Shown here in pieces: positions 1,363 through 12,178 of a stretch of 12,178 bases of DNA (positions are counted from its first letter, which is position 1; each line of letters begins with the position of its first letter). The DNA comes from a virus. Lineage: Duplodnaviria > Heunggongvirae > Uroviricota > Caudoviricetes. The position numbers and the translations under genes were made by a program. Under the pieces are notes generated by a model. It ran no database searches, was not told where the DNA came from, and worked only from the letters and a program-made list of their open reading frames with translations. Where the stretch lies: positions 1 through 12,178 of IMG/VR virus record IMGVR_UViG_2778261086_000006; one strand, 5' to 3'.

Positions 1363-1396
1363 TTAATTTCGATTATTTTTCCCGGATGGAAAATTC

Positions 1397-1439
1397 TTAG
1401 AAACCGATCACATACAGCTGCATTTATTAAGGTTATCAT
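1397..1439 (+). promoter_or_regulatory. Candidate CyaR promoter: imperfect CRP-like site (TTAGA-N6-TCACA, 1397-1412) and -10-like TATCAT (1434-1439)
   Basis: Read directly upstream of the sRNA 5' end at 1447. CyaR is known to be CRP-activated. Left half-site is a poor match, so the exact site is uncertain. Confidence 0.35.
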
Positions 1440-1446
1440 CCGTTTC

Positions 1447-1533
1447 GCTGAAAAACATAACCCATAAAATGCTAGCTGTACCAGGAACCACCTCCTTAGC
1501 CTGTGTAATCTCCCTTACACGGGCTTATTTTTT
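1447..1533 (+). ncRNA. cyaR: CyaR (RyeE) Hfq-dependent small RNA
   Basis: Sequence GCTGAAAAACATAACCCATAAAATGCTAGCTGTACCAGGAACCACCTCCTTAGCCTGTGTAATCTCCCTTACACGGGCTTATTTTTT matches my memory of E. coli CyaR. It ends in a GC stem plus T6 intrinsic terminator and sits right after yegQ as in K-12. Confidence 0.85.
1507..1533. repeat. attL core: 27-bp direct repeat AATCTCCCTTACACGGGCTTATTTTTT, overlapping the CyaR terminator
   Basis: Identical 27-mer recurs at 11665-11691. Left copy is preceded by bacterial cyaR sequence, right copy by phage int-distal sequence. Confidence 0.85.
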
Positions 1534-1597
1534 ACGTACAACAAATTGAAATAAAAGGATTTATTTCTGGTCACGTCCACACATTGACCACATCGAC

Positions 1598-1622
1598 AAA
1601 AAAGCCCCTCGACTGAGGGGCT
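1598..1622 (-). terminator. Rho-independent terminator downstream of ogr (minus strand); potentially bidirectional
   Basis: Perfect stem AGCCCCTC/GAGGGGCT (1603-1610 / 1615-1622) with 4-nt loop GACT. On the minus strand it is followed by U6 (A-run 1598-1603 on +). On the + strand it is followed by TTCTGTTT. Confidence 0.6.
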
Positions 1623-1634
1623 TTCTGTTTGTAA

Positions 1635-1853
1635 TTACATCCACATAATTTGCTGCCCTGACGGCAACGGGTGTGGCCTTACGGCGTGGACTTCTCCCGG
1701 CTTCACGATGTATCGCTGTACCGACTCATAAGTGATGAACGTGGCGCTGCAATTCACGTTCTGACACTGGTGATAACGCTCTTTTGTCGTGTCAGTGATA
1801 TAGCGGCTTGTACGCGCATGTGCGGCATGCTGGCATAAAGGACAATGAAACAT
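1635..1853 (-). CDS. ogr: Ogr, zinc-finger late-gene transcriptional activator (72 aa)
   Basis: ATG at 1851-1853 with GGAAGAGGTG Shine-Dalgarno upstream. Protein MFHCPLCQHAAHARTSRYITDTTKERYHQCQNVNCSATF... has the Cys motif and matches recalled P2 Ogr / K-12 OgrK. The 93-aa track ORF is an upstream extension and unlikely to be real. Confidence 0.9.
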   Translation of the reverse strand: MFHCPLCQHAAHARTSRYITDTTKERYHQCQNVNCSATFITYESVQRYIVKPGEVHAVRPHPLPSGQQIMWM

Positions 1854-1934
1854 CGCGAGCACCTCTTCCGGTTTTATTGATGGTGCCATTTTAGTTAATT
1901 TATCCTTATAAAACAAACAGATAAAATAAAAACA

Positions 1935-3098
1935 TCACTCATCATCTTCTGTTTCGTACTCCACATCAGAAAGCCTGACCTCAAGCTCTAAAGACGTCGT
2001 GAAGCCGCTATTATTCAGAAAATGTGTCACCTTAGTGATTGTCCAGTCCTGCTCGTCTATGACGCGCTTAAAGCCTGACACTTTAACCGGTGTTTCCGTG
2101 TAAATATCTGCCCGACCGGTAGCCAGGCTGATGGAGAACTCCGCCACACCCCGTTGCAGTTTATCCCACTTCGCCTGAGCGGCGCGCATGGCCTGCGCTT
2201 TCGTGGCATATACCGTAGTCAGGGCAAAAACGTTGTCAGCCTCACCGGCCATGTATTCACCTTCGCGCGCTTCCGGTACTTTTGGCGCTTTCTTCTGCGT
2301 GACCGGTTTCGCTTTCGGGTGCTCCAGTGCGCGCAGGTGTTTTTCTTTCTTTTTGCGTTTCAGTTTTACCTTCTGCTTTTGCGGCTTCGGGTCTTTGGTG
2401 TGTAACCACTTTGCCGTTACGCCGGTGTAAGCTCCACGGTCAGCAATCGCAAAATGATGACGGTCGCCGTCGCTGCGGGTGATGGTAATCTGCGGGATTT
2501 TTTTACCGCTGGCCGTCACCCCCTGCCCCGCTTTGAGAAACAACAGTTTTCCCATTTTTACCGACACCTCACCGCCGTTGCGTTCTGCAAGACGGGTCAG
2601 GAATTTCGCATCAGACTCCTGCGACTGGTCGATGTGCGGGATTTTAATTCCGGCCAGTGACGGAGCGACACTGGCTTCCAGCCTGTTACGGGAGGCTATC
2701 GCTTCAACAATCGCACCGAGTGTGGTGTCATGCCAGGAGCCTTCCCGGCGGGAATTGAGCGTCCCGCGAAAATCTGCACTCCGGGCGCGGATGGTGACCA
2801 CATCCGGCGCGCCCCGGTGTTCAACCTCATCAACGGTGAATTTCCCTTTGCATACCAGGGCAAAACCTTTCCAGCCGATATACACCGTCAGGACAGCGCC
2901 ACGAACCGGTAGCCCGACCTGCCCGTCGGCATCGTTCAGTTCAATATCAAGCTGGTCAGCCTCAAAGCCCCGGTTATCCGTCAGGGTCATGCTCATCAGA
3001 CGGTCGCTGATATTGCCGGTAATATCCCTGCTGTCGAGCATCAGCATGTAATCCGGCGTCAGCGTACTGCCTGCATCAAATGTCAGTGCATCCAGCAT
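1935..3098 (-). CDS. D: Tail protein D (P2 gpD-like), 387 aa
   Basis: ATG at 3096-3098 overlapping the U stop. Length and position (between U and ogr) match P2 gpD as recalled. Confidence 0.82.
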   Translation of the reverse strand: MLDALTFDAGSTLTPDYMLMLDSRDITGNISDRLMSMTLTDNRGFEADQLDIELNDADGQVGLPVRGAVLTVYIGWKGFALVCKGKFTVDEVEHRGAPDVVTIRARSADFRGTLNSRREGSWHDTTLGAIVEAIASRNRLEASVAPSLAGIKIPHIDQSQESDAKFLTRLAERNGGEVSVKMGKLLFLKAGQGVTASGKKIPQITITRSDGDRHHFAIADRGAYTGVTAKWLHTKDPKPQKQKVKLKRKKKEKHLRALEHPKAKPVTQKKAPKVPEAREGEYMAGEADNVFALTTVYATKAQAMRAAQAKWDKLQRGVAEFSISLATGRADIYTETPVKVSGFKRVIDEQDWTITKVTHFLNNSGFTTSLELEVRLSDVEYETEDDE

Positions 3099-3577
3099 TA
3101 TCCCGCCCCCGTCATCCCCGTGAATCTGGTCGCCATACTGCCAGCTTTACCGATGAGCGATTCCGCCTGTTTACCGATATCGCCATAAAGCGCGGCCAGT
3201 GATTCATCAACGCGGGTGAGCGACAGCGTAAAATCAATTTTCCGGGGTGTGCCGTCTGCAAAGAAAATACTCCCTGTTTCACTTACCCTGCTGATGACAT
3301 ACATGCCGTAAATCATGCCGGTGCCATCCAGCAACGGCCACGCCCGGCCTTCATCTGCCATCAGCCTGAGCGTGGTCATCGTCAGCTTTCCGCCGGTCAG
3401 TTCGGGATAAAGCACACCGGCAAGCGTCATGTTTTCCTCACCCACACCGAGAAACTGGTAGGCCTCCCGTTTACCGATACGGGAATTTGACGGCCAGCGA
3501 TAATCTGATTCACGCTGCATGGTCTGGTGTGGCAGCGTCTGGCGCATAAAAACAAACATACCTAACGCGAGCATCAT
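3098..3577 (-). CDS. U: Tail protein U (P2 gpU-like), 159 aa
   Basis: ATG at 3575-3577. Protein MMLALGMFVFMRQTLPHQ... Length and synteny match P2 gpU as recalled. Confidence 0.8.
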   Translation of the reverse strand: MMLALGMFVFMRQTLPHQTMQRESDYRWPSNSRIGKREAYQFLGVGEENMTLAGVLYPELTGGKLTMTTLRLMADEGRAWPLLDGTGMIYGMYVISRVSETGSIFFADGTPRKIDFTLSLTRVDESLAALYGDIGKQAESLIGKAGSMATRFTGMTGAG

Positions 3578-3591
3578 TTTTCGTCACCTCC

Positions 3592-3903
3592 TTAACCGTC
3601 ATGCATCATGCTGGCACGGGCGCGCGCACGTTTATCCCGCTCGTATTTTTCGAGCGCATCCTGTAACTGGCGGTCAAGCTGTGTCCCCGGCGCAGTACCA
3701 CCCGTCAGGCTGATGTGATATTCGTTTTTACTCTGGTCCACATAAGAGCGGCCAGCCGGTGCCGTAACCGGCTGATAAGCCTGATAACCTGCATAAGAGC
3801 TGGTCGCCGGAATATAACCACCGGTGCCATACGTGGCGGCATGAGTCCTTGCGGCGGTCTGGTCAAGTGTGTCTGACTCTTTGTTGATAACCGTCGCGGC
3901 GAA
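3592..3903 (-). pseudogene. 3' fragment of tape-measure gene T (C-terminal ~103 codons, no start codon)
   Basis: Minus-strand frame translates to ...[41 protein letters not shown]...YHISLTGGTAPGTQLDRQLQDALEKYERDKRARARASMMHDG then TAA (3592-3594), directly upstream of U as in P2. The frame is closed by stops beyond 3904 and has no initiator. Confidence 0.55.
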
Positions 3904-4645
3904 TCAGCGTTGTGACGCCAGACTCGTTCAACAGGTCAGCATCGGTGCCGGACTCCTGCAAATCCCAGAATACAGATGCGCTGATGCCGGTAACACCGTT
4001 TACCCCGACGTTGGACAGCGTTTTATGCCAGCCCTGCTCCTGGTCGATTTTAGCGCGCAGACCCAGCGCACGGGCGGTGGCATACGCGGTGGCGGTGGTA
4101 CTGGTGACCGTATCCCATGCGAGGAAAACCGTAATTACATCGCCGTCGTAAGCCACACCACCGGCGAACAGGTAGCCGGGAATGTCCCGGGTAATGTTCA
4201 GGCCAATAAGATGACGGCTTGCAGGTTTGGCATCAGCAATCAGCCGTTCCATTTCCTGATACATTGCCTCTGTGATGCCACTTTCCAGTACACCAATATC
4301 AAGCCGGAAGGTGCCGGGCGGGTCACTGTTTTCCCACCACTCCGTCACGTTGATGAGATAGCCGAGCGGCTCCACCACACGCCGGATTGCACCGATAGTG
4401 CCCTTATGACAGTGGATGAAATAGGCATCGCGGATAACGGCGCGTTTTGTCGCTTCCGGCCACTTTTCATCCCACCTGTCGACCGAAAACGCCCACGCCA
4501 GCCACGGCAGCAGATTTGCCGGACAGGTATCCGGGTTCCACAGTTCACGAATCCTGACCGGCGTTTTTTCAATTTCCGCACAGGCTTTTGCGGCGGCAAC
4601 TTCAAGCGGTGATGAGCCGGTCGGCAGCAGTCGCGAATCACTCAT
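3863..4645 (-). CDS. Baseplate protein I-like ORF with aberrant C-terminal extension (260 aa); probable deletion-fusion product
   Basis: ATG at 4643-4645 overlaps the J stop. The N-terminal part ([26 protein letters not shown]...) resembles P2 gpI, which I recall as ~176 aa. This ORF instead runs 260 codons and reads into the T-fragment region in a different frame. Confidence 0.55.
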
Positions 4646-5546
4646 CCGAGCCTCCGGTCACGACGCGGTATTCGGTACAGAAAGACGCCTGCGTACTGTT
4701 GAGCACGATGTCGGCCAGCGGTGCAGTCAGTTCGACACGCTGCACGCCTTCCACATGCAAAGCGGCATAAATGGCAGACAGACGGATGTCGCGCCCCAGC
4801 CGGTGCTGTGCCGTGATGTACGCTTCCAGTTTTTTCACGGCAGCAGCGCGTATGGGTTCGCTTTCGGGACCAGGGTAAAGGTAAAGCGTGGCGTTTATCT
4901 GGTATTCAACGATGGCGGCAGACTGCACGGTCACGCGGTCGGCCACCGGCCTGACGTCCTCGCCATTAAGGGCGTTACGCACCACCGCCAGCAGGTCTTC
5001 GGATGCGACACCGTTATTTTCACGTGACAGCACAGAGATGGTGACGCAGGCCGGAGACGGACTGGTTACAGAAATATCCGCGACACGCCCGTCGGCACTG
5101 CGACCATGATACTGATAGGCCCCCACCGACCCGGCGACGCTTAAACCTTCAAACGCCTGCTGAATACGCAGACGATAATCCGTGTCAGATTCCATCACTG
5201 CCGGTGTCGGCGGGATGGTCGAATCATCTTCCAGGGTGATAATCAGGCGCGTGGTGTTGTAATTGGCACCAATCACATCAAGGTCATTACCGGCAGCACA
5301 GGCCAGCATCACCGCCCGTGCGGCCTCATTCACACGCTGACGCCAGATAAGCTCACGATAAGCATTTTCCTCCAGCAGTTTGACGAGAGGCTCAGATTCC
5401 AGCGTCAGGGTACGGGCGACCGCCTCCTGCTGGTCTTCCGGGTAAAGGGAAATCAGTGTCGCCTTGCGTTCGGCAAGAATGGTTTCAAAGTCCAGCTCCT
5501 CAACCACATCCGGTGCGGGTAGCTGGTTCAGGTCGATAATCGGCAT
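4638..5546 (-). CDS. J: Baseplate protein J (P2 gpJ-like), 302 aa
   Basis: ATG at 5544-5546. Length and synteny W-J-I match P2. Confidence 0.82.
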
Positions 5547-5550
5547 GGTT

Positions 5551-5898
5551 TCAACTCACAGGAATGGTTAACGAAAGTGGCTGGCCGGTGTCGTTGTGCT
5601 GGCCGGTTAACGTGACCGTCATTCGCCCGTCAAAACTGCGCTCAGTGGTGACGGATGACAGGGTGACGCGGGGTTCCCATTTCAGCACCGCCATGTAACA
5701 GGCGACCTTAATCTGCAACTCAAGCGCCGGGGTCTGCGGCTGGTCAATCATTGACGCCAGCAACGAGCCGTAATCACGACGCATCACCCGCGAGCCGACC
5801 GGTGTGCGCAGGATATCGCCGATACTCTGGCTGATATGCTCAAGGTCAGTGACAGTCAGGCCATCACTGCGATTCATTCCGAGATAACGCGCAGTCAT
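5551..5898 (-). CDS. W: Baseplate protein W (gp25-like), 115 aa
   Basis: ATG at 5896-5898 overlapping the V stop (TGA 5895-5897). Length and synteny match P2 gpW. Confidence 0.82.
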   Translation of the reverse strand: MTARYLGMNRSDGLTVTDLEHISQSIGDILRTPVGSRVMRRDYGSLLASMIDQPQTPALELQIKVACYMAVLKWEPRVTLSSVTTERSFDGRMTVTLTGQHNDTGQPLSLTIPVS

Positions 5899-6530
5899 AG
5901 AGGTCCCCCTGTTGTGCCGCCGCTGTCGCCGGGGTGTTTATGGGTATGAAGTACCTTACCGTTTGATGAGAGTTCACCGCCGGTGTGTTCAATGTTGCCG
6001 CGCATCGTCCCGCCCTTCTGCACTTCCAGCGTGCCGGTAATCAGCCTGTTGGTGCAGACCACCTCCGGTGTGTCCAGGGTGACGCGGGTTGATGCTTTCA
6101 CCATGACCACCGGCACCGTGGCGGTAACAGAATCAGAAGCCGTCACGCTGGCCGTTTTAATTCCGCTTACCGTAAGTGCACTGGTTTCGGGTTCATACTC
6201 AATCACCGCCCCGTCAGGGAAACGGATATGCAGGGCATCCGCCGACGCAGACGGCGGAGGGTTATCGCCGGAATAAATCCCCGGCAGAACAAACGCCGTG
6301 TCAAGTTCACCGCCCACGGCCAGAATCAGCACCTGCTCCCCCACGGAAGGTGCCCACCATGTGCACGAACGTCCGGCGCGATGGGTCAGCCACTGAAGCC
6401 AGTCGGTGCACATGCCGCCGGTCTGCACACGGCAGCGACCGGCTTTAAGGTTGGTTTCGACGACAAGGCCGGTACGAATCATGTTGCGCAGTGCGCGCGC
6501 GAGTTCCTGAATATTTGCGAGAGTGTTCAT
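5895..6530 (-). CDS. V: Baseplate spike/hub protein V (P2 gpV-like), 211 aa
   Basis: ATG at 6528-6530 gives MNTLANIQELARALRNMIRTGLVVETNLKAGRCRVQTGG... The track ORF start at 6566 is a TTG 12 codons upstream and is less likely. Confidence 0.78.
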   Translation of the reverse strand: MNTLANIQELARALRNMIRTGLVVETNLKAGRCRVQTGGMCTDWLQWLTHRAGRSCTWWAPSVGEQVLILAVGGELDTAFVLPGIYSGDNPPPSASADALHIRFPDGAVIEYEPETSALTVSGIKTASVTASDSVTATVPVVMVKASTRVTLDTPEVVCTNRLITGTLEVQKGGTMRGNIEHTGGELSSNGKVLHTHKHPGDSGGTTGGPL

Positions 6531-6607
6531 AACGGGAAGGATGCCGCTGGACGATACCAGCAGCAATCATGGAGGATTCTGTCAGCTGTGACACAACATA
6601 ATAAATA

Positions 6608-7363
6608 TTAGTTGTAGCACTTCTCTATAATCTTCATACACTCCTCATGAGCTAAATCATGGCTGTCAAATTCTTTATTAAAAAAGAAGAAAAACGCCTT
6701 CTTAACCTGAGGCATTTCAATAAAAATAAATTCATCAACCTTATGAAAGAAATGAAAACTCTTGTTTGATGTTTCAAAAACCATCAAAGAATTATGTTTT
6801 TTATCCTTCCATTTCGACATCAGATTGCGTCGCGATTTTCGTATAATCCTGAAGACATCCCCCGGCGTCGTATCGACATTCCCCCAAAACATTGCAACCG
6901 GAAAGTTTGCAAGGAACGGGATATAATCACCACCTTTATACCTGAGAAAGCGGTTCCGCAAATCCATTAATTGCAACTTAAAACCCATGTATTGCAACCA
7001 CCATATGATGCAATCATACTCATAATCTGTTAACTCCTCTCCCCTCTTTTCCGTAAGAAATTTCTTCAGGTTATACTCAAACACTCCCAGCAAATCAGAA
7101 TTGCACACTCTGCATGCTGGTACAGTGGCTTTAATGTAATGAGTTGACTGATTATTCTTTTTATTAATTAAAGATTTTTCAGTATTTGACTCAAAGGCCC
7201 ACTGAGGAATAATGTGCTCACGAGTAATATCGTCAGAACTCCCGCATAACACACATATATCAGCATTATGGTCAACAATAATACAATCCATAACTTTCTT
7301 TTGAGAGTGCTTTACTCTTTTTCTCAAAATAGAAAACTTTTCATCCATAAACACCCGTCTCAT
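6608..7363 (-). CDS. AT-rich cargo (moron) ORF, 251 aa: N-terminal Cys4 zinc-finger HNH-type nuclease motif plus ~160-aa C-terminal region of unknown function
   Basis: ATG at 7361-7363 overlaps the S stop (ATGA); TAA at 6608-6610. A sampled 60 nt (6621-6680) is ~32% GC against visibly GC-richer flanks. Motif C-V-L-C-G...D-D-I-T-R-E-H-I-I-P-Q-W-A-F...C-R-V-C-N fits the CxxC...DH-I-x-P...N...CxxC pattern of HNH nucleases. It occupies the S-V slot where P2 carries its non-essential moron orf30. Confidence 0.7.
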   Translation of the reverse strand: MRRVFMDEKFSILRKRVKHSQKKVMDCIIVDHNADICVLCGSSDDITREHIIPQWAFESNTEKSLINKKNNQSTHYIKATVPACRVCNSDLLGVFEYNLKKFLTEKRGEELTDYEYDCIIWWLQYMGFKLQLMDLRNRFLRYKGGDYIPFLANFPVAMFWGNVDTTPGDVFRIIRKSRRNLMSKWKDKKHNSLMVFETSNKSFHFFHKVDEFIFIEMPQVKKAFFFFFNKEFDSHDLAHEECMKIIEKCYN

Positions 7364-7818
7364 ATAACATCTTTCGATAGAATCACTAATAACTCCCTTT
7401 CTATCAATTGTATAGATTCCTTGTCAAAACCAAATAACTCACGAACAGGATATTCCACCACAGCACTATTACGCCCCGGCTTATCCTTAAGCCCTAATTG
7501 ATGTACTCGCGCAATTCGTTGCACTCCGCTGGCAAACTCCACCACCGCCGCACTCTCGCTACCTGTTGCTTTCATAAACCGGTTAGTGCGTAATTTCACA
7601 AACATTTCCCGCTTTATCCGGCCTTTCTTATTTCGCACTGGCTGGTTTTTTCTCGGTACATACGGCGTACCATCTGGGCCTTTTTGTAATTTAATTCGCT
7701 GCTGCTGGCGCTGGCGCAGTTTCTTCGCAATATCTACCGCCAGTCGCCGACGCCCTGACGGTGACAGCGACTCAATCAGTCCGGTCATCCGGTCTTCAAA
7801 ACGCTTAAACTCATTCAT
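7360..7818 (-). CDS. S: Tail completion protein S-like, 152 aa, with AT-rich 3' end
   Basis: ATG at 7816-7818 overlaps the R stop. Position between R and V matches P2 gpS. The last ~25 codons (nt ~7364-7440) are AT-rich, unlike the rest of the gene. Confidence 0.68.
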   Translation of the reverse strand: MNEFKRFEDRMTGLIESLSPSGRRRLAVDIAKKLRQRQQQRIKLQKGPDGTPYVPRKNQPVRNKKGRIKREMFVKLRTNRFMKATGSESAAVVEFASGVQRIARVHQLGLKDKPGRNSAVVEYPVRELFGFDKESIQLIERELLVILSKDVI

Positions 7819-8278
7819 CCCACTTGCTCACCAGTTCGCCATTGATATAAAGCTCCACCGGGCGGGTGACCGGCTCCGGCGGCGGAGGTTCCGGGATATT
7901 CTTCACATGCAGCGCACCGTCAACCTCACTGACCAGCGTGCGCTCGGTCAGCATCAGGCTGATACTGATATCAAAGCTGCTGTCATTGTTGATGTCTGCA
8001 TAAAATGTGAAGCCCTTTTTCTGGCCTTCGTCGGTGGTCATGATGTCGGGCTGATTTTCCCGCAGCCACGCCAGCACCGGCACGATGAGCAGGTCAAAAT
8101 CACCGGTAAAGTCGGTCACAATCACATTGAGCGTGTAACGCTTTTCGAATGACAGCGACGCCGCCAGTGTGGAGGCAATACTCCCGTTATCCACGAATAT
8201 CCGCAGCATCTCGGGGTTAGTTTTCAGCACCGTGACGGCATCAGTCAGCGCCCTGCGCAGGCTGTCGGGTTTGAGCAT
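7811..8278 (-). CDS. R: Tail completion protein R (P2 gpR-like), 155 aa
   Basis: ATG at 8276-8278 with AGGAAG Shine-Dalgarno 7 nt upstream. Length and sequence match recalled P2 gpR. Confidence 0.8.
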   Translation of the reverse strand: MLKPDSLRRALTDAVTVLKTNPEMLRIFVDNGSIASTLAASLSFEKRYTLNVIVTDFTGDFDLLIVPVLAWLRENQPDIMTTDEGQKKGFTFYADINNDSSFDISISLMLTERTLVSEVDGALHVKNIPEPPPPEPVTRPVELYINGELVSKWDE

Positions 8279-8340
8279 CGTTTTCTTCCTGACAGTGTTT
8301 AATCATTTTTACCTGGCTGGCACAACGTGCCAGCGCGTTC

Positions 8341-8502
8341 TCAAGCTGCCGGATAAGCTGCACGACGGGCAGCAGGTATTGGCGCGTCACACTCTTCGCA
8401 AACCAGCGCAGAAACACCGCAATGCTTTACCCTTGCCGCGTTAATCTGGCGCTCCAGTAATTCAGCCTGTTGTTCCTGAATAAAATCCACGTTGTCCGGC
8501 AT
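8341..8502 (-). CDS. Small TraR/DksA-type zinc-finger-like ORF (orf82 position), 53 codons, apparently truncated
   Basis: ATG at 8500-8502 overlaps the orf81-like stop. Translation MPDNVDFIQEQQAELLERQINAARVKHCGVSALVCEECDAPIPAARRAAYPAA then TGA. The CEEC-x-IPxxRR knuckle is present but the second CxxC is missing; downstream in-frame sequence (..TLCQPGKND) looks like a degenerate remnant. Confidence 0.4.
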   Translation of the reverse strand: MPDNVDFIQEQQAELLERQINAARVKHCGVSALVCEECDAPIPAARRAAYPAA

Positions 8503-8804
8503 TACCAGCTCCTTTTGTCGTTCAGTTTCTTAAATTCATCAGCGCAATAGCTGGCAATTTCAGCCGTTACTTTTGTCAGTTCGTCTACGGAGGAAATTTG
8601 CTTGTGAAATACAGCGCGTTTCACAAGTAAATTGACCACATCAGACAGGAGGTTTAATTCGTTCTGATAAATCGCGATAACAGATTCAGTTATTTCGTGT
8701 TTTTCTTTATCAAGCCTAAGTTGAATAAGAGACAAATCGCCATTTTTCATAACGGAGATTTTTAAGGCATTGTTCAGTAATACAATTGAACGAGAACAGG
8801 ACAT
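8502..8804 (-). CDS. P2 early-operon orf81-like protein (100 aa from ATG)
   Basis: ATG at 8802-8804 (the track start at 8807 is a TTG). Lies between the orf80-like and orf82-like ORFs as in the P2 early operon. Confidence 0.65.
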   Translation of the reverse strand: MSCSRSIVLLNNALKISVMKNGDLSLIQLRLDKEKHEITESVIAIYQNELNLLSDVVNLLVKRAVFHKQISSVDELTKVTAEIASYCADEFKKLNDKRSW

Positions 8805-9028
8805 CAAAGCACCTCCCCGCGAGACAATCCGATATTGTGAAATTTTTCCGACTCCTGACTGAGCAGCTCGACTATCTCCACGCGGGATAACTCCGCCTTT
8901 GTGATGTGGCGAATCATGGCGTCAAGATGAGAAGAAAAGCGCGTCGCTGCATCGGCCTGTGCTTCGGTTCTGGCCTGTTGCAGCAGTAATGCGTATTTAC
9001 CGCACTGATTTTCAGAAACTATATGCAT
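8804..9028 (-). CDS. P2 early-operon orf80-like protein, 74 aa
   Basis: ATG at 9026-9028. Position directly downstream of B in the early operon. Confidence 0.65.
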
Positions 9029-9091
9029 GACTTTCTCCAGGCAAAAAGAAGCCCCGCACGATTAAGTGCGTTAAAAACTCTGGTTAATTAT

Positions 9092-9592
9092 TTAATGCAG
9101 ATATTGCTCTGGTTTAACCGACGTCAGAATTGTCGGTGCATACTCAAACAGGCTGAATAATTCACGTAATGCACGGAATAAAGCATCACGCCAGTAACAT
9201 GACTCTTCATTAATTCGCCAGTATGGCTGGTTGAATTCTTTTTCAGTCAATCCGGCATGCATAAATAAAGTACGACGCTGACTGACTGTTAAAAAACTAA
9301 TATATGCATACTCACTTGCGCCAACCTGACGGCGTTTTGAGAATGCACCACGCAATTCATCAATTGCACATACCAGTCGTTCACGTTCGACGTCGTTCAT
9401 TTCTTCAAAACACATCGTTGCGTGACGCTGTTTTAACTGAGCATGGAAGCAAACCGTTAACCGTTCGCGCTCCATCATCTGATTATAATAATCGCATGTC
9501 TCCTGCCAGCGAGGGACGGCCAGATGCTTACCAATTATCCGGCGCATAGCTGCTGGCTGTTTTTCAACGAGATTGAGCGTCATCACTGTCAT
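9092..9592 (-). CDS. B: Replication protein B (P2 gpB-like), 166 aa
   Basis: ATG at 9590-9592 overlapping the orf78-like stop. Length and synteny cox-orf78-B match P2. Confidence 0.8.
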   Translation of the reverse strand: MTVMTLNLVEKQPAAMRRIIGKHLAVPRWQETCDYYNQMMERERLTVCFHAQLKQRHATMCFEEMNDVERERLVCAIDELRGAFSKRRQVGASEYAYISFLTVSQRRTLFMHAGLTEKEFNQPYWRINEESCYWRDALFRALRELFSLFEYAPTILTSVKPEQYLH

Positions 9593-9759
9593 TTCCAGAC
9601 CCTCCGGCTTTTCAGAAAGGTCAGAGCCTTTTTTAACGGACTCTGTTTTTTGGTGCGGATAATGATTCCCTTACGCCCCTTACCGTGGGTGATGGTGAAG
9701 TCAATCGCCCTGGGGCTTTCGTTACGCAATAACTGAGCAATACAACGAGGCTCATTCAT
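9589..9759 (-). CDS. P2 orf78-like small early protein (56 aa from ATG)
   Basis: ATG at 9757-9759 preceded by AAGGAGAA Shine-Dalgarno. The track's 64-aa version starts at a GTG (9781-9783) inside cox. Confidence 0.6.
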   Translation of the reverse strand: MNEPRCIAQLLRNESPRAIDFTITHGKGRKGIIIRTKKQSPLKKALTFLKSRRVWK

Positions 9760-9769
9760 ACGGTTCTCC

Positions 9770-10045
9770 TTAACGTGGTTCACCGAGACCTAACCACATC
9801 AACCAGCCGTCACGAATCTCTTTAGGACGGCTTTCATAAGCCAGTTTTAGTCCGTTATTCCATGCCGGAAGGTATACCCAATATTCACCAGCACGCCCCG
9901 ATACTGACTGAGGGTCAGTAATCTCAATAACTGGTAATTTCCCTTTCTCAATCATGCCCCTTACAGCTCTTGGAGTTTTACCAATGAGTTTTGCAAACTC
10001 CTGATAAGGCACGGCATCAGTCACGCTTACAAGCTGTCTATTCAT
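9770..10045 (-). CDS. cox: Cox, excisionase and repressor of Pc (91 aa)
   Basis: ATG at 10043-10045. Protein ...DAVPYQEFAKLIGK...GKLPVIEITDPQSVSGRAGEYWVYLPAWNNGLKLAYESRPKEIRDGWLMWLGLGEPR matches recalled P2 Cox. Divergent from C. Confidence 0.9.
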   Translation of the reverse strand: MNRQLVSVTDAVPYQEFAKLIGKTPRAVRGMIEKGKLPVIEITDPQSVSGRAGEYWVYLPAWNNGLKLAYESRPKEIRDGWLMWLGLGEPR

Positions 10046-10166
10046 CTGCTACGATTCTCCCTTAGTGCTTCTAATGGCTCCTAATGGCTAATTATTGCCT
10101 AAAAGGATAACTCCAGAAGCACAACATTTCACACTATCAGCAAGAAATTACGCAATCGGAGTAATT
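10046..10166. promoter_or_regulatory. Pe/Pc immunity-switch region between cox and C, with tandem 10-bp direct repeats CTAATGGCTC / CTAATGGCTA (10071-10090)
   Basis: Divergent cox and C genes flank this 121-bp region. The tandem repeat is read directly and is a candidate operator (C and Cox both recognise direct repeats in P2). Promoter hexamers not mapped. Confidence 0.5.
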
Positions 10167-10466
10167 ATGTCAATAGACGTTTCGGAGAAGTTGAAGCTAA
10201 TCCGTGAATCTGAAAGGTTAAACCGTAAAGAATTCAGTGAATTAACTGGTGTAGCCTACAGCTCACTTTCGAGCTATGAGAGCCGGTCAAAAAACGCTGG
10301 AGTTGAAGCCATAATGAAGGTCTTACAACATCCCAGATTTACTAAATATACTTTGTGGTTCATGACTGATCAGGTAGCTCCAGAAGCCGGGCAAATTGCG
10401 CCCGCTCTCGCACACTTTGGGCAAAACGAAACAACGTCGCCCCACTCCGGTCAAAAGACTGGTTAA
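10167..10466 (+). CDS. C: Immunity repressor C (P2 C-like), 99 aa
   Basis: ATG at 10167-10169 with GGAG 6 nt upstream. The C-terminal half (...FTKYTLWFMTDQVAPEAGQIAPALAHFGQNETTSPHSGQKTG) matches recalled P2 C. The 123-aa track ORF starts at an upstream TTG. Confidence 0.88.
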   Translation: MSIDVSEKLKLIRESERLNRKEFSELTGVAYSSLSSYESRSKNAGVEAIMKVLQHPRFTKYTLWFMTDQVAPEAGQIAPALAHFGQNETTSPHSGQKTG

Positions 10467-10581
10467 CAATTTATCGTGAATATATTCATCACAAGTGCCT
10501 ACTATTGGTGGCTAAATTTCAGCCACCACGAAAAAAGCGATTAGTAGTAGCAAAAAAAAGTACCACTCGGAGGGTTTTCTG

Positions 10582-11595
10582 ATGGCAATCAAAAAACTCG
10601 ATGATGGTCGATATGAAGTGGACATCCGCCCTACTGGACGTAACGGAAAACGCATCCGTAGGAAGTTTGATAAGAAAAGCGAAGCTGTCGCTTTCGAAAA
10701 ATACACGTTGTACAACCACCACAATAAAGAATGGCTATCAAAACCAACAGACAAACGACGTCTGTCGGAACTGACACAGATCTGGTGGGATTTAAAGGGT
10801 AAACACGAAGAGCATGGGAAATCTAATCTTGGAAAAATTGAAATCTTCACAAAAATAACGAATGACCCATGCGCATTTCAAATCACGAAATCCCTTATCA
10901 GCCAGTACTGCGCCACCCGAAGAAGTCAGGGTATTAAACCTTCGAGTATCAATCGTGATTTAACATGTATTAGCGGCATGTTTACAGCCCTGATTGAAGC
11001 GGAGTTATTCTTTGGTGAGCACCCTATCAGAGGGACAAAGAGGCTTAAGGAGGAAAAACCAGAAACAGGCTATCTCACACAGGAAGAAATTGCCTTACTG
11101 CTTGCAGCACTTGACGGCGACAACAAAAAGATTGCGATTCTTTGCCTGAGTACAGGAGCACGTTGGGGAGAAGCAGCTCGTTTGAAAGCAGAAAATATCA
11201 TCCATAACCGCGTCACGTTTGTTAAAACGAAAACAAACAAACCACGCACCGTCCCGATCTCAGAGGCTGTTGCCAAAATGATCGCGGATAACAAACGAGG
11301 TTTTTTATTCCCTGATGCTGATTACCCTCGCTTCAGACGAACAATGAAAGCAATAAAACCGGATTTGCCAATGGGGCAAGCCACACATGCACTAAGGCAC
11401 AGCTTTGCCACTCATTTCATGATTAATGGAGGAAGTATTATCACGCTACAACGGATACTAGGTCACACGCGGATTGAGCAAACTATGGTTTACGCTCATT
11501 TTGCGCCAGAGTACCTTCAGGACGCCATTTCTCTTAATCCGCTAAGAGGTGGTACTGAGGCCGAGAGTGTCCACACAGTGTCCACAGTAGAGTAA
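10582..11595 (+). CDS. int: Tyrosine integrase (P2 Int-like), 337 aa
   Basis: ATG at 10582-10584 with GGAGGG upstream. C-terminal catalytic motifs present (..ATHALRHSFATHF...LGHTRIEQTMVYAHF). Lies next to attR downstream of C, as in P2. Confidence 0.9.
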   Translation: MAIKKLDDGRYEVDIRPTGRNGKRIRRKFDKKSEAVAFEKYTLYNHHNKEWLSKPTDKRRLSELTQIWWDLKGKHEEHGKSNLGKIEIFTKITNDPCAFQITKSLISQYCATRRSQGIKPSSINRDLTCISGMFTALIEAELFFGEHPIRGTKRLKEEKPETGYLTQEEIALLLAALDGDNKKIAILCLSTGARWGEAARLKAENIIHNRVTFVKTKTNKPRTVPISEAVAKMIADNKRGFLFPDADYPRFRRTMKAIKPDLPMGQATHALRHSFATHFMINGGSIITLQRILGHTRIEQTMVYAHFAPEYLQDAISLNPLRGGTEAESVHTVSTVE

Positions 11596-11664
11596 CGTTT
11601 AAGGGCTTTCAGTGGTAATTTATGCCGCTCAAACCCGCATTGTACCGTTGAAAGCCCCTACTGG

Positions 11665-11691
11665 TGACACCCTAAATCTCCCTTACACGGG
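11665..11691. repeat. attR core: second copy of the 27-bp direct repeat, followed by one extra T
   Basis: Identical to 1507-1533. Located ~70 bp downstream of the int stop. Confidence 0.85.
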
Positions 11692-11765
11692 CTTATTTTT
11701 TTATGCATAAGCCCTATCTCTGGTAACCGTCTTCCATTGACCACATCGATAGAATCCTCCTTCAT

Positions 11766-11798
11766 AGCACGATGCCTTTCACTTATCGGCATCGTGCT
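11766..11798. other. Perfect 11-bp inverted repeat AGCACGATGCC...GGCATCGTGCT (hairpin, 11-nt loop) between attR and yegR
   Basis: Read directly. Lies downstream of the yegR stop on the minus strand but has no U-run on either strand, so it is not a canonical intrinsic terminator. Confidence 0.3.
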
Positions 11799-11860
11799 CC
11801 CACAGGTTCCGGCTACGCACAGCCAGAACGCGCATATTTGACGCTTACCAAAAAATATTC

Positions 11861-12178
11861 TCACTCTCCACATTTGAATGTCAGACGAGCGACACCATGT
11901 AATCCTACACCTTCTGTCTTCAGCTCAACTATTTGCATTTTTTTGCCCTGAGTAACACAGAAATGAGTTGCATCATTTTTTACTATATTTTCTGCACCAG
12001 ATATTCTACCCCTGGCTAAAGAAGCTTCGGCTTCGGTGTAGTATTGGTTATCGAGTTTACGCTGAATATTACTTTTATATGCAAGACCAAATTTACCGAT
12101 ACTTGTCTCATCATTATGCACAGCACAACCAGACATAATAAAAATACTAATTAATGATATAGCAGCTATCTTTTTCAT
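11861..12178 (-). CDS. yegR: YegR-like small lipoprotein, 105 aa, complete
   Basis: ATG at 12176-12178 (window edge). N-terminal signal peptide with lipobox (IMSGC). Length and position match E. coli yegR near cyaR/ogrK. Confidence 0.8.
   Translation of the reverse strand: MKKIAAISLISIFIMSGCAVHNDETSIGKFGLAYKSNIQRKLDNQYYTEAEASLARGRISGAENIVKNDATHFCVTQGKKMQIVELKTEGVGLHGVARLTFKCGE

What the first reader, a model, noticed from the sequence alone, without database searches (positions are those of the whole stretch)
8279..8502. Early-late deletion junction: orf82-like TraR zinc-finger ORF truncated and joined directly to R
In P2 the early operon continues orf82-orf83-A, then old/tin, cos, capsid (Q-L) and lysis genes before R. 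Here the TraR-like ORF stops after 53 codons with half its zinc-finger missing, and R starts ~60 bp further on. An 8-bp perfect inverted repeat (GCTGGCAC-AAC-GTGCCAGC, 8316-8334) lies at the presumed junction. The deletion leaves no terminator that I can recognise between the Pe-driven early genes and R-S-cargo, so these may now be co-transcribed from the C-repressed early promoter.
Basis: partly seen in the sequence, partly recalled or inferred. Interest (0 to 1): 0.45.

Follow-up and report, generated by a model that had tools for sequence, protein, structure and literature searches.

The report
Deletion scar in decayed P2 prophage
This is the scar of a roughly 13-14 kb deletion that disabled a P2-type virus resident in an E. 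coli chromosome; that is ordinary prophage decay, except that many unrelated strains have independently broken the same short stretch of the same gene.

Summary
Window 8502-8341 (- strand) encodes the first 51 residues of the P2 TraR-like protein Orf82 plus two foreign codons. The second CxxC and the C-terminal helix are lost. R starts 62 nt downstream.

The junction is at 8355-8345 (TATCCGGCAGC). It joins P2 coordinate 27705 in orf82 to 8378 in lysC. It deletes orf83, A/ori, cargo, cos, and the head and lysis genes: about 14.3 kb on P2 coordinates, or 12,844 nt against an intact prophage at the same site.

The 8-bp inverted repeat is real, but the deletion did not create it. It is a native lysC hairpin that the P2 record annotates as a "putative attenuator". 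It lies 10 nt on the late side of the junction and has no U-tract.

The element has two further microhomology deletions and is a dead remnant bounded by perfect att cores. Co-transcription of R-S-cargo from Pe is plausible but untested. R-S-cargo is a native arrangement that predates the deletion.

Unexpectedly, the orf82 breakpoint (GCTTAY|CCG) recurs in at least 10 junctions with different partners, across three integrase types. The lysC site has three different left partners. The cause is unresolved. The A nickase is not supported, evidence for Int is weak, and no CRISPR spacer was seen.

The parts
8341..8502 (-). orf82' : truncated TraR/DksA-like gene. It has 51 Orf82 codons plus Ala-Ala-stop read from lysC-derived sequence in another frame. 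The first CxxC (C35-C38) is kept. The second CxxC and the C-terminal helix are lost.
   Evidence: function of intact Orf82 from PMC9239242
8345..8355 (-). Deletion junction. The 11-nt stretch TATCCGGCAGC is shared by both parents. TATCCG (8355-8350) is perfect microhomology. The G at 8349 is the late-type base, so the crossover lies within TATCCG. It joins P2 27705 (orf82) to P2 8378 (lysC).
8241..8344 (-). 3' remnant of lysC (Rz1-like spanin gene). It lacks its start, signal sequence and lipobox, and overlaps the start of R by 38 nt as in P2.
   Evidence: P2 lysC 8202-8492; R 8455
8316..8334 (-). Native lysC hairpin (8-bp stem, 3-nt loop), equal to P2 8399-8417 'putative transcription attenuator; O operon'. 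It is followed by CAGGUAAAAAUGAUUAAAC, with no U-tract.
7811..8278 (-). R, tail completion gene. Intact at 155 aa. It has lost its late promoter PO.
7360..7818 (-). S, tail completion gene. Intact at 152 aa, R18C-type allele.
6608..7348 (-). Cargo gene of 246 aa, on the same strand, starting 12 nt after the S stop. AT-rich, with no Pfam or PADLOC match. A native neighbour of S in phage R18C and in intact prophage L130.
8502..9028 (-). orf81 (DUF5405, 8807-8502) and orf80 (DUF2732, 9028-8804). Intact early genes upstream of the junction.
9055..9070 (-). Terminator-like hairpin plus T-rich tail between B and orf80. Corresponds to P2's annotated putative rho-independent terminator 26980-27007.
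9092..10045 (-). cox (10045-9770), orf78 and B (9592-9092): the promoter-proximal part of the early operon.
10046..10173 (-). Early control region, with a TTGACA -35 hexamer at 10173-10168 in the position of P2 Pe. The whole C-Pe-cox module is 100% identical to isolated phage vB_EcoM-720R8.
10167..10466 (+). C immunity repressor gene. Intact at 99 aa. Non-P2 immunity type.
4117..4131 (.). Second deletion junction (I | sheath FI), about 5.3 kb lost (H, G, cargo, FI 5'). 15-nt imperfect overlap. Creates a 260-aa I'-FI' fusion ORF at 4645-3863.
3889..3891 (.). Third deletion junction (FI | T), about 3.5 kb lost (FI 3', FII, E/E', most of T). 3-nt microhomology.
1507..1533 (-). P2 att core (27/27), at the ogr-side prophage boundary.
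11675..11701 (-). P2 att core (27/27), at the int-side prophage boundary.

Best explanation
Window 8345-8355 is the scar of a single large internal deletion in a P2-like (Peduovirus) prophage. The prophage is integrated at the cyaR/yegQ-yegR attachment site of E. coli.

Shown:
- The deletion joined codon 50/51 of orf82 to the 3' part of lysC, 77 nt upstream of R.
- The two parental sequences share TATCCG(T/G)CAGC: 6 nt perfect and 10 of 11 overall.
- The deletion removed the rest of orf82, orf83, the replication gene A with ori, the cargo locus, cos, the terminase, portal and capsid genes, and the whole lysis cassette.
- It is one of three microhomology deletions in this element. The element can no longer replicate, package, lyse or build a tail.
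- The truncated Orf82 has lost half of its Zn-binding globular domain and the C-terminal helix.

Inferred:
- The deletion arose by RecA-independent short-homology illegitimate recombination. A DNA 3' end in orf82 (...GGCTTAY), produced by a stalled or collapsed fork or by a nick, re-annealed at a short match downstream. Both host sites place the prophage so that chromosomal forks run co-directionally with early transcription.
- Truncated Orf82 is probably inactive.
- R, S and the cargo gene have lost the late promoter PO. They now have only the C-repressed early promoter Pe upstream, so they are probably silent in the lysogen and read through only on derepression. The intervening hairpin is the same one that P2 late transcripts must cross to express R and S.

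The orf82 end of this junction is not a random position. The same few nucleotides have been used repeatedly and independently with many different downstream partners.
For: Junction mapping.

Parental haplotypes and microhomology: (nearest intact early relative reads GTGCAGCTTATCCGTCAGC).

Extent of loss against an intact prophage at the same site: (12,844 nt, plus deletions of 5,310 and 3,538 nt).

Perfect att cores.

Truncation of the TraR domain. Intact Orf82 binds RNA polymerase and is expressed from Pe: PMC9239242.

Hairpin is native and lacks a U-tract.

Modules are 99.5-100% identical to isolated phages.

Recurrence:
- The same orf82 breakpoint is joined to lysC, R, K/lysA, H, FI, FII, T, two places in A, and the cargo-proximal region.
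- These occur in prophages with 337-, 326- and 331-aa integrases.
- They include NCBI assemblies and one complete genome.
- Partners share only 3-6 nt of terminal microhomology (TAT, TAC, TTACC, TTATC, CTTAC, TATCCG).

Independent assemblies of the same junction: (NCBI GCA_002486895.1 and Logan SRR30296986).
Against: - No expression data exist, so the transcriptional consequence is inference only.
- The mechanism of joining (replication slippage, MMBIR, or end-joining after a break) cannot be told apart from sequence alone.
- The microhomology is modest. P2 alone offers about 50 equally good 9/11 pairs between orf82-A5' and lysB/lysC, so microhomology does not explain why these particular sites are used.
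- The window and L005 share the identical junction, so one of them could have inherited it rather than formed it anew.
- The ascertainment of recurrent junctions is biased. It required a retained Orf82 N-terminus, or both halves lying within about 1.8 kb of each other.
Confidence: 0.9

Rival explanations
1. The orf82|lysC junction arose once and is shared by descent. It reached the second prophage type (L005, with a 326-aa integrase) by homologous recombination or gene conversion between co-resident P2-like prophages. On this reading the window's junction is inherited, not independently formed.
For: - The window and L005 have exactly the same breakpoint and encode the identical 53-aa product.
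- E. coli genomes often carry two or more P2-like prophages (median 2 places per genome).
- Flanks are 95-97% identical, which is enough for homologous exchange.
Against: - The two copies differ at 66-68 positions over 2 kb.
- The differences include standing polymorphisms 4 nt from the microhomology on the early side (8359 A/G) and 20 nt away on the late side (8325). That leaves too little homology to anchor a conversion tract.
- Each allele matches a different intact relative.
- In R-S, the window and L005 differ at 14 of 600 nt, yet each has an intact-phage neighbour at 7 and 1 differences respectively.
- Both sites are independently recurrent with other partners.
Confidence: 0.3
2. The recurrent breakpoints are produced by a site-specific enzyme rather than by passive microhomology. 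Candidates are P2 Int acting on secondary att-like sites, the cis-acting A nickase at a pseudo-origin, or a host nuclease or CRISPR-Cas3 acting at a defined target in orf82.
For: - The left end is fixed to within a few nucleotides in at least 10 junctions, while the right ends range over more than 20 kb.
- The att core read on the other strand contains GGCTTAT (the orf82 site) and CCCTTACACG. The latter matches the gene-A partner of L146 over 10 nt, in register with the breakpoint.
- The 8-mer TCCTGTCA occurs both 3-4 nt 3' of the annotated ori nick and about 25 nt 3' of the orf82 site.
Against: - Across 9 sites, similarity to the att core is only marginally above 754 background TAY sites (mean 4.8 against 3.9 of 12; p about 0.04, post hoc, driven by one site).
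- The sites are inverted relative to the real att cores, and no junction ends at att.
- The ori nick sequence itself does not resemble the breakpoints.
- No spacer-like 32-nt hits to the zone were seen among 5,426 E. coli genomes.
- Cluster-1 junctions would keep a type I-E PAM plus protospacer intact.
- A second cluster 20 nt upstream uses unrelated microhomologies.
- No IS sequence is present at any junction.
Confidence: 0.25
3. The remnant is a domesticated element kept by selection. The deletion usefully placed R-S-cargo under the C-repressed early promoter, so that the cargo (a possible defence gene) is switched on only when an incoming phage or satellite derepresses Pe.
For: - C, Pe, cox, B, orf80-81, R, S and the cargo are all intact.
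- The S-V position is a known cargo locus in P2 (orf30 in AF063097).
- Several independent remnants keep the same early block.
Against: - The modules are 99.5-100% identical to those of isolated phages, so the intact ORFs are explained by youth and need no selection.
- The cargo already follows S in intact phages.
- Other remnants delete R, S or the cargo site altogether (L134, L137, L141).
- The exact element is rare: 2 contigs, and none of 5,426 complete genomes.
- The cargo has no recognisable defence domain.
Confidence: 0.07
4. The junction is an assembly chimera, or the 53-aa ORF is a genuine short gene of complete P2-like phages.
For: Short-read assemblies can misjoin repeats, and many P2-like prophages coexist in one genome.
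Against: - The shared stretch is only 11 nt, far below any assembler's k-mer.
- The same junction is found in an NCBI assembly (71.8-kb contig) and in an unrelated Logan run on a different haplotype.
- Analogous junctions occur in complete genomes.
- All 120 IMG/VR phage contigs and all listed intact phages have the 74-aa gene and normal lysC.
Confidence: 0.02

Closest known systems
Cryptic P2 remnant of E. coli K-12 at the same locus (yegQ-cyaR-ogrK-yegZ-yegR), and defective P2-like prophages in general
   Same: - Same attachment site, with att core copies at both ends and CyaR overlapping the core.
- Same orientation.
- Same kind of decay by internal deletion that leaves ogr and D at one end.
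- The K-12 gene names come from my own knowledge. ogrK, yegQ and yegR annotations are seen.
   Different: - This element is a much younger and larger intermediate (10.2 kb).
- It still carries int, C, cox, B, orf80-81, R, S, V, W, J, U, D and ogr.
- Its modules are 99.5-100% identical to those of isolated phages.
Short-homology (microhomology) illegitimate recombination in E. coli, as measured by aberrant lambda prophage excision (Spi- assay), and the MMBIR / alt-EJ models
   Same: - The junction carries a few to about 10 nt of shared sequence.
- No mobile-element ends are present.
- The paper describes this class of event as RecA-independent, originating from disturbed replication and DSB resection, with 3' overhangs aligned by microhomologies of around 9 bp (PMC11372144).
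- All three deletions in the window fit this pattern.
   Different: - Here one end is reused at nucleotide resolution with many partners, which microhomology alone does not predict.
- The genetic requirements (RecA, RecQ, SSB, ligase) are untested for these events.
TraR/DksA-family RNA-polymerase secondary-channel regulators (F TraR, lambda Orf73, P2 Orf82)
   Same: - Residues 1-51 are 96-98% identical to P2 Orf82 and its relatives.
- Intact Orf82 binds RNA polymerase, inhibits rrnB P1 and is expressed from Pe (PMC9239242).
- The N-terminal helix and first CxxC are retained.
   Different: - The second CxxC and the C-terminal helix (the beta-lobe Si1 contact) are deleted.
- Pfam score falls below the gathering threshold.
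- That paper reports no TraR homologue lacking the C4 finger, so the truncated product is most likely non-functional.
Intrinsic (rho-independent) terminators and attenuators
   Same: GC-rich 8-bp stem with a 3-nt loop. The identical element in P2 is annotated 'putative transcription attenuator'.
   Different: - No U-tract follows the stem.
- The consensus scan does not call it a terminator.
- In P2 the essential genes R and S lie downstream of it in the same operon, with the operon terminator annotated after S. It therefore cannot be an efficient stop.

Membership tests
P2-like (Peduovirus) prophage | 27-nt P2 att core duplicated at both ends of the element | tested here: met
   Two 27/27 copies at 1507-1533 and 11675-11701; 0 expected by chance.
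P2-like (Peduovirus) prophage | P2 gene order and high nucleotide identity (int-C-cox-B-orf80-82 ... R-S-V-W-J-I ... U-D-ogr) | tested here: met
   94-99.8% identity to P2 and relatives. Synteny is kept except for three deletions.
P2-like (Peduovirus) prophage | Complete set of replication, packaging, head, lysis and tail genes (a functional phage) | tested here: not met
   orf83, A/ori, cos, Q-L, X, Y, K, lysA, lysB, H, G, FI, FII, E and T are absent or truncated.
TraR/DksA C4 zinc-finger family (PF01258) | CxxC-17-CxxC zinc finger | tested here: not met
   Only C35-x2-C38 is present. C56 and C59 are deleted.
TraR/DksA C4 zinc-finger family (PF01258) | Score at or above the Pfam gathering threshold | tested here: not met
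   22.3 bits against a 24.9 cut-off. Intact Orf82 scores 43.6.
TraR/DksA C4 zinc-finger family (PF01258) | N-terminal helix with DxxDxA-type acidic tip | tested here: met
   MPDNVDFI... is retained unchanged. P2 Orf82 naturally lacks A8 (PMC9239242).
TraR/DksA C4 zinc-finger family (PF01258) | C-terminal helix contacting the RNA polymerase beta lobe; RNA polymerase binding | tested here: not met
   Residues 52-74 are deleted. Binding itself cannot be tested with these tools.
Intrinsic terminator | GC-rich hairpin | tested here: met
   8-bp stem at 8334-8316 on the - strand.
Intrinsic terminator | U-rich tract immediately 3' of the stem | tested here: not met
   The stem is followed by CAGGUAAAAAUGAUU, and the terminator scan does not report it.
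Microhomology-mediated illegitimate recombination (deletion) | Short sequence shared by both parental sites at the junction, with no extended homology | tested here: met
   TATCCG perfect, 10/11 overall. The other two junctions have 3 nt and an imperfect 15 nt.
Microhomology-mediated illegitimate recombination (deletion) | No transposon, IS or att end at the junction | tested here: met
   Both sides align to phage sequence right up to the shared nucleotides.
Microhomology-mediated illegitimate recombination (deletion) | RecA independence; dependence on end resection and ligase | not testable with these tools
   Requires genetic experiments.
Int-promoted secondary-site deletion | One endpoint at att, or both sites resembling the att core | tested here: inconclusive
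   No endpoint lies at att. Core similarity is marginal (p about 0.04, driven by the L146 partner).
Tailocin / domesticated phage-tail cluster | Complete tail gene set plus a release (lysis) module | tested here: not met
   Sheath, tube, tape measure, fibre and the whole lysis cassette are missing from the window. A relative, L008, keeps all tail genes but has no lysis genes.

The most novel reading that the evidence does not exclude
P2-like prophages contain discrete fragile sites: a zone of about 30 nt in orf82 (ATACCTGCTG...GCTTAY|CCG) and hairpin loops in lysC and at the 5' end of A. A specific lesion (an enzyme-made nick or a programmed fork barrier) at these sites repeatedly starts rightward deletions. 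These remove replication, packaging and lysis genes, so different E. coli lineages disarm these prophages in parallel and by a predictable route.
Probability: 0.25. Interest if true: 0.6.

Novelty: new member of a known kind. Interest (0 to 1): 0.4.

Why it matters
The junction itself is routine. It documents how a resident P2-type phage loses its dangerous functions (replication, packaging, lysis) in a single step through a short-homology deletion, and it catches a young intermediate on the way to the ogrK/yegZ-type stump found in K-12.

The more interesting result is the recurrence. The same few nucleotides of orf82 have been used as a deletion endpoint at least ten separate times, with partners ranging from gene A to the tape-measure gene, in prophages at three chromosomal sites. 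The lysC partner of this window is itself reused.

If this reflects a site-specific lesion rather than chance and sampling, prophage inactivation in E. coli would be partly deterministic. That is directly testable by measuring deletion spectra in P2 lysogens.

The result also matters for annotation. Truncated 'TraR/DksA' ORFs of about 50-88 aa in E. coli genomes are deletion scars, not small regulators.

Tried and rejected
1. A nickase acting at a pseudo-origin. The ori nick region (GCGCCTCG^GAGTCCTGTCAA) does not resemble the breakpoints. Only a shared 8-mer, TCCTGTCA, lies about 25 nt downstream of the orf82 site. Not supported.

2. Int acting at secondary att sites. One partner (L146, CCCTTACACG) matches the core strikingly. 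Over all sites the similarity is marginal (p about 0.04, post hoc), the sites are inverted relative to att, and no endpoint lies at att.

3. CRISPR self-targeting. No spacer-like short hits to the 80-nt zone were seen among 5,426 genomes. This check was limited, because only the best place per record is counted and only one of the five partial records was examined. Cluster-1 junctions would also leave a type I-E target intact.

4. IS-mediated adjacent deletion. No IS sequence is present at any junction.

5. Common descent of all late-site junctions. The R-S flanks are not monophyletic.

6. Secondary structure as the cause.
   - The lysC site (z about -3) and the A site lie in hairpin loops.
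   - The orf82 zone is not significantly structured (z +0.2 to +0.6).
   - Three of three sites falling in loops is weak evidence.

7. Polarity test by counting copies of the left and right flanks (1,805 against 1,735 places). This is suggestive of left-retaining truncations, but it is confounded by allelic divergence at the orf82/orf83 boundary.

8. Scans for further junctions.
   - GTDB species representatives: none.
   - JGI metagenomes: one hit, an intact phage carrying a SNP.
   - IMG/VR: one hit, a 1-nt frameshift.

9. Literature searches for the P2 'attenuator', the specificity of the A cleavage site, and P2 deletion hot spots found nothing usable.

10. Rfam: only a sub-threshold osmY hit over the hairpin (20.8 against 46.9 bits). 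Treated as chance.

11. The cargo protein has no Pfam or PADLOC match.
Full report
CONTEXT

The window is a 10.2-kb remnant of a P2-like (Peduovirus) prophage. It lies between yegQ (1-1362) and yegR (11861-12178) and is bounded by two perfect copies of the 27-nt P2 att core, at 1507-1533 and 11675-11701. The sRNA CyaR (1445-1530) overlaps the first core.

The source is E. coli assembly GCA_002486895.1, contig NNXC01000020.1, which is 100% identical to the window over window 341-12178, all of the window that the fetched locus covers.

On the - strand the gene order is: cox, orf78, B, orf80, orf81, orf82', [junction], lysC', R, S, cargo, V, W, J, I'-FI', T', U, D, ogr. C and int lie on the + strand.

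CHECK OF THE OBSERVATION

ORF 8502-8341 (53 aa) is identical to the closest intact Orf82 (phage vB_EcoM-720R8) through residue 51, then ends Ala-Ala-stop. P2 Orf82 has 74 residues. The first CxxC is kept, and the second CxxC and everything after it are gone. The Pfam zf-dskA_traR match covers profile positions 5-24 of 36 and scores 22.3 bits, under the 24.9 cut-off. Intact P2 Orf82 scores 43.6.

R begins at 8278, 62 nt after the ORF's stop, with its own AGGAAG ribosome-binding site.

The inverted repeat GCTGGCAC-AAC-GTGCCAGC is at 8316-8334 exactly as described.

WHERE THE JUNCTION IS

Homology to the early region of P2-like phages runs from 8800 down to 8345. Homology to the late region runs from 8355 downwards. 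Base-by-base comparison with P2 (AF063097) places the join between P2 27705 (orf82) and P2 8378 (lysC), with the 11 nt TATCCGGCAGC common to both.

The nearest intact early-side relative reads TATCCGTCAGC at this place. The parental match is therefore 10 of 11, with TATCCG perfect. The remnant carries the late-type G at 8349, which places the crossover inside TATCCG (8355-8350).

The ORF's stop codon comes from lysC sequence read in another frame. So the ORF is joined to a 77-nt tail of lysC, not directly to R.

On P2 coordinates the missing interval is 27706-33593 plus 1-8377, about 14.3 kb. Against an intact prophage at the same chromosomal site (E. coli Combat13F7, L130) it is 12,844 nt. 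It covers the 3' end of orf82, orf83, A with ori, the cargo locus, cos, Q, P, O, N, M, L, X, holin, endolysin, lysA, lysB and the 5' part of lysC.

THE INVERTED REPEAT

The repeat corresponds to P2 8399-8417, which the reference record annotates as 'putative transcription attenuator; O operon'. All 120 intact IMG/VR contigs retrieved with this sequence have normal lysC upstream of it. It is therefore native. It was not created by the deletion, and it lies 10 nt on the late side of the shared stretch.

As RNA it forms an 8-bp stem with a 3-nt loop, but CAGGUAAAAAUGAUU follows it. There is no U-tract, and the terminator scan does not call it.

In P2 the essential genes R and S lie downstream of this hairpin in the O operon, whose terminator is annotated after S. 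The hairpin therefore cannot be an efficient stop.

THE REST OF THE ELEMENT

Compared with L130 there are two more internal deletions:
- I|FI at 4117-4131: about 5.3 kb lost, with a 15-nt imperfect overlap. It creates a 260-aa I'-sheath fusion ORF.
- FI|T at 3889-3891: about 3.5 kb lost, with 3 nt shared.

The element cannot replicate, package, lyse or assemble a tail.

It is nevertheless young. Its C-Pe-cox module is 100% identical to isolated phage vB_EcoM-720R8, and its S-3'/cargo module is 99.5% identical to isolated phage R18C. The cargo gene follows S on the same strand in R18C and in the intact prophage L130. 'R-S-cargo' is therefore an inherited arrangement, not a product of the deletion.

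TRANSCRIPTIONAL CONSEQUENCE (INFERENCE)

The deletion removes the late promoter PO, which serves R and S in P2. The only recognisable upstream promoter is the early promoter, whose TTGACA -35 sits at 10173-10168, overlapping the start of C.

Two structures lie between it and R:
- the terminator-like hairpin between B and orf80 (9070-9055), which is P2's annotated putative terminator;
- the lysC hairpin.

Neither is likely to stop transcription fully, because A in the first case and R and S in the second lie downstream of them in P2. Read-through from Pe into R-S-cargo on derepression is therefore plausible, and silence in the C-repressed lysogen is expected. Nothing here tests it.

Intact Orf82 is an experimentally characterised TraR homologue. 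It binds RNA polymerase and inhibits rrnB P1, and its overexpression stops growth (PMC9239242). The truncated product lacks half of the globular domain and the C-terminal helix, and is probably inactive.

THE SAME JUNCTION ELSEWHERE

The exact 53-aa product occurs in only one other place, a Logan contig (L005). That contig has a different integrase (326 aa), a different repressor and different secondary deletions.

The breakpoint is identical, but the two copies differ at 66-68 positions over 2 kb. The differences include positions 8359, 8325 and 8286, close to the junction. The 8359 alleles match different intact relatives.

In 600 nt of R-S, the junction-bearing elements differ from each other by 13-21 nt, against a median of 15 for all phage pairs. 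Each has an intact-phage neighbour at 1-7 differences.

I judge independent origin more likely than descent followed by conversion, at roughly 2:1. It is not proven.

RECURRENT BREAKPOINTS

Three complete E. coli genomes carry other early-late fusions. Mapped on P2, these are 28215|8306 (L001), 28209|8378 (L007) and 28279|8374 (L008). The lysC site of this window (...GATA|TCCGGC...) therefore has three different left partners.

A protein search with the 53-aa ORF then showed many Orf82 variants that are normal up to Tyr50 and afterwards diverge into different tails. Their DNA shows the same exit from orf82, within GCTTA(Y)CCG, joined to a range of partners:

| Partner | Loci |
|---|---|
| lysC | window, L005 |
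| inside R | L137 |
| K/lysA | L140 |
| 3' end of H | L139 |
| 3' end of FI | L138 |
| FII | L134 |
| 3' end of T, with filler | L141 |
| two positions in A | L135/136, and L146 (a complete genome) |
| region upstream of a SIR2/DUF87 cargo | L131-133, 23 contigs |

These lie in prophages with 337-, 326- and 331-aa integrases. The partners share only 3-6 nt of terminal microhomology with the orf82 site.

A second cluster about 20 nt upstream (ATACCTGCTG(C)) accounts for three more DNA-verified junctions. One of these uses the same point in gene A (P2 ~28279) that is the left breakpoint of L008.

Of about 25 distinct non-frameshift Orf82 fusions, about 10 break at codon 50 and about 9 at codons 43-46. 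Only 2 break anywhere in codons 51-74.

P2 alone offers about 50 equally good 9/11 microhomology pairs between this region and lysB/lysC. Microhomology therefore does not explain the choice of site.

WHAT MIGHT CAUSE THE RECURRENCE

The pattern is a fixed left end, variable right ends, and a match confined to the last few nucleotides of the retained side. It fits a DNA 3' end (...GGCTTAY) that forms at this site and re-primes or re-joins downstream. This is the scheme proposed for short-homology illegitimate recombination and MMBIR (PMC11372144; PMC2621351, listed).

At both the yegR and cpxP sites the prophage is oriented so that chromosomal forks enter from int and run co-directionally with early transcription. 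This rests on the gene order seen and on my own knowledge of the K-12 map. The nascent leading strand would then carry exactly that 3' end.

I could not identify the lesion:
- The ori nick sequence of the A protein does not resemble the sites.
- Resemblance to the att core is striking for one partner but marginal overall (p about 0.04).
- No CRISPR-spacer-like hits to the zone were seen.
- No IS is present at any junction.
- The lysC and gene-A sites fall in the loops of predicted hairpins (z about -3 and -1.5). The orf82 zone is not significantly structured.
- Copy counts in complete genomes show about 70 more left flanks than right flanks (1,805 against 1,735 places). Allelic divergence at orf82/orf83 could contribute to that difference.

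ASCERTAINMENT

The fusions were found in one of two ways: both halves lay within about 1.8 kb of each other, or the Orf82 N-terminus was retained. Nothing can therefore be said about deletions that start further left. Junctions that keep only the right side of the site would also have been missed.

Such junctions are rare:
- 3 of 5,426 complete genomes carry fusions of the first kind.
- 5 of 1,600 records have only a partial match to the zone.
- There are none in IMG/VR, JGI metagenomes or GTDB representatives.

VERDICT

Two corrections apply: the inverted repeat is native and lies off the junction, and the ORF is joined to a lysC remnant rather than directly to R.

As a feature it is ordinary. 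The reuse of the orf82 and lysC breakpoints across independent lineages is unexpected and remains unexplained. It is what lifts the interest above that of a routine cryptic-prophage junction.

Noticed in passing
window 1445-1530 (+), overlapping att core 1507-1533: A full-length CyaR/RyeE sRNA (Rfam RF00112, 100.7 bits). Its 3' end overlaps the P2 att core, so the prophage-supplied core copy completes the sRNA gene at this integration site.
   Followed up: partly
window 6608-7348 (-): AT-rich 246-aa cargo gene directly after S on the same strand. It has no Pfam or PADLOC match. It contains CxxC...EH...CxxC motifs that look HNH-like by eye. It is 99.5% identical in isolated phage R18C and is present in intact prophage L130. 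It is a candidate accessory or defence gene at the S-V cargo position, where P2 has orf30 on the opposite strand.
   Followed up: partly
window 3863-4645 (-), junctions at 4117-4131 and 3889-3891: Two further internal deletions (about 5.3 kb and 3.5 kb) remove H, G, cargo, FI, FII, E and most of T. They create a 260-aa in-frame fusion of tail protein I (Pfam Tail_P2_I) with a fragment of the sheath protein.
   Followed up: yes
window 8335-8355 and P2 8365-8417 (L002 1488-1540): In intact phages the lysC breakpoint lies in the loop of a first hairpin (AAGTGCCG-ATATC-CGGCAGCTT), immediately 5' of the annotated 'attenuator' hairpin. The pair folds significantly better than shuffles (z about -3). 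The deletion removes the 5' arm of the first hairpin.
   Followed up: partly
P2 ~28262-28290 (L003 ~3263-3291); L008 and L142: A hairpin with a T-run inside the 5' part of gene A (AATAAAAGCCCG-GTGCA-CGGGTTTTATT) is used as a deletion endpoint twice, in its loop. It is the left end in L008 and the right end in L142.
   Followed up: partly
L008 (E. coli GIMC1405, NZ_CM139235.1 1790731-1814037): A remnant at the same site keeps the complete tail gene set (R to D), ogr and the early block, but has lost A, cos, and the head and lysis genes through an A|lysC fusion. It carries a GTP pyrophosphokinase gene at the S-V cargo position, and a DUF5677 gene and a tyrosine recombinase gene between tail-fibre assembly gene G and the sheath gene FI. 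The architecture is tailocin-like but has no lysis module.
   Followed up: no
L130 41772-43319; L131 6609-9663; L135 8444-10921: The tin/old-position cargo differs in each relative. It is an RNA-directed DNA polymerase in L130, a SIR2_2 plus DUF87 ATPase pair in L131, and a SacI-like restriction enzyme plus C5 methylase in L135. This fits a defence-gene hot spot.
   Followed up: no
L145 3977-4001, and proteins P0004, P0012, P0025, P0061: Several Orf82 variants are 1-nt frameshifts or tiny deletions at the same spot (the CCC run in GCTTACCCG). They read into ...VVFPVSQSLKQKTNITGERHEYSY. The site therefore also collects small mutations.
   Followed up: partly
window 8276-8334 (-): Weak sub-threshold Rfam hit to the osmY sRNA model (20.8 bits against a 46.9 gathering score) over the hairpin and R leader. 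Treated as chance.
   Followed up: yes
protein P0044: One Orf82 'variant' ends in DRKSTRLNSSHLSQSRMPSSA. By my recollection this is the translation of an Illumina adapter, so it would be an assembly artefact in a public contig rather than a biological junction.
   Followed up: no
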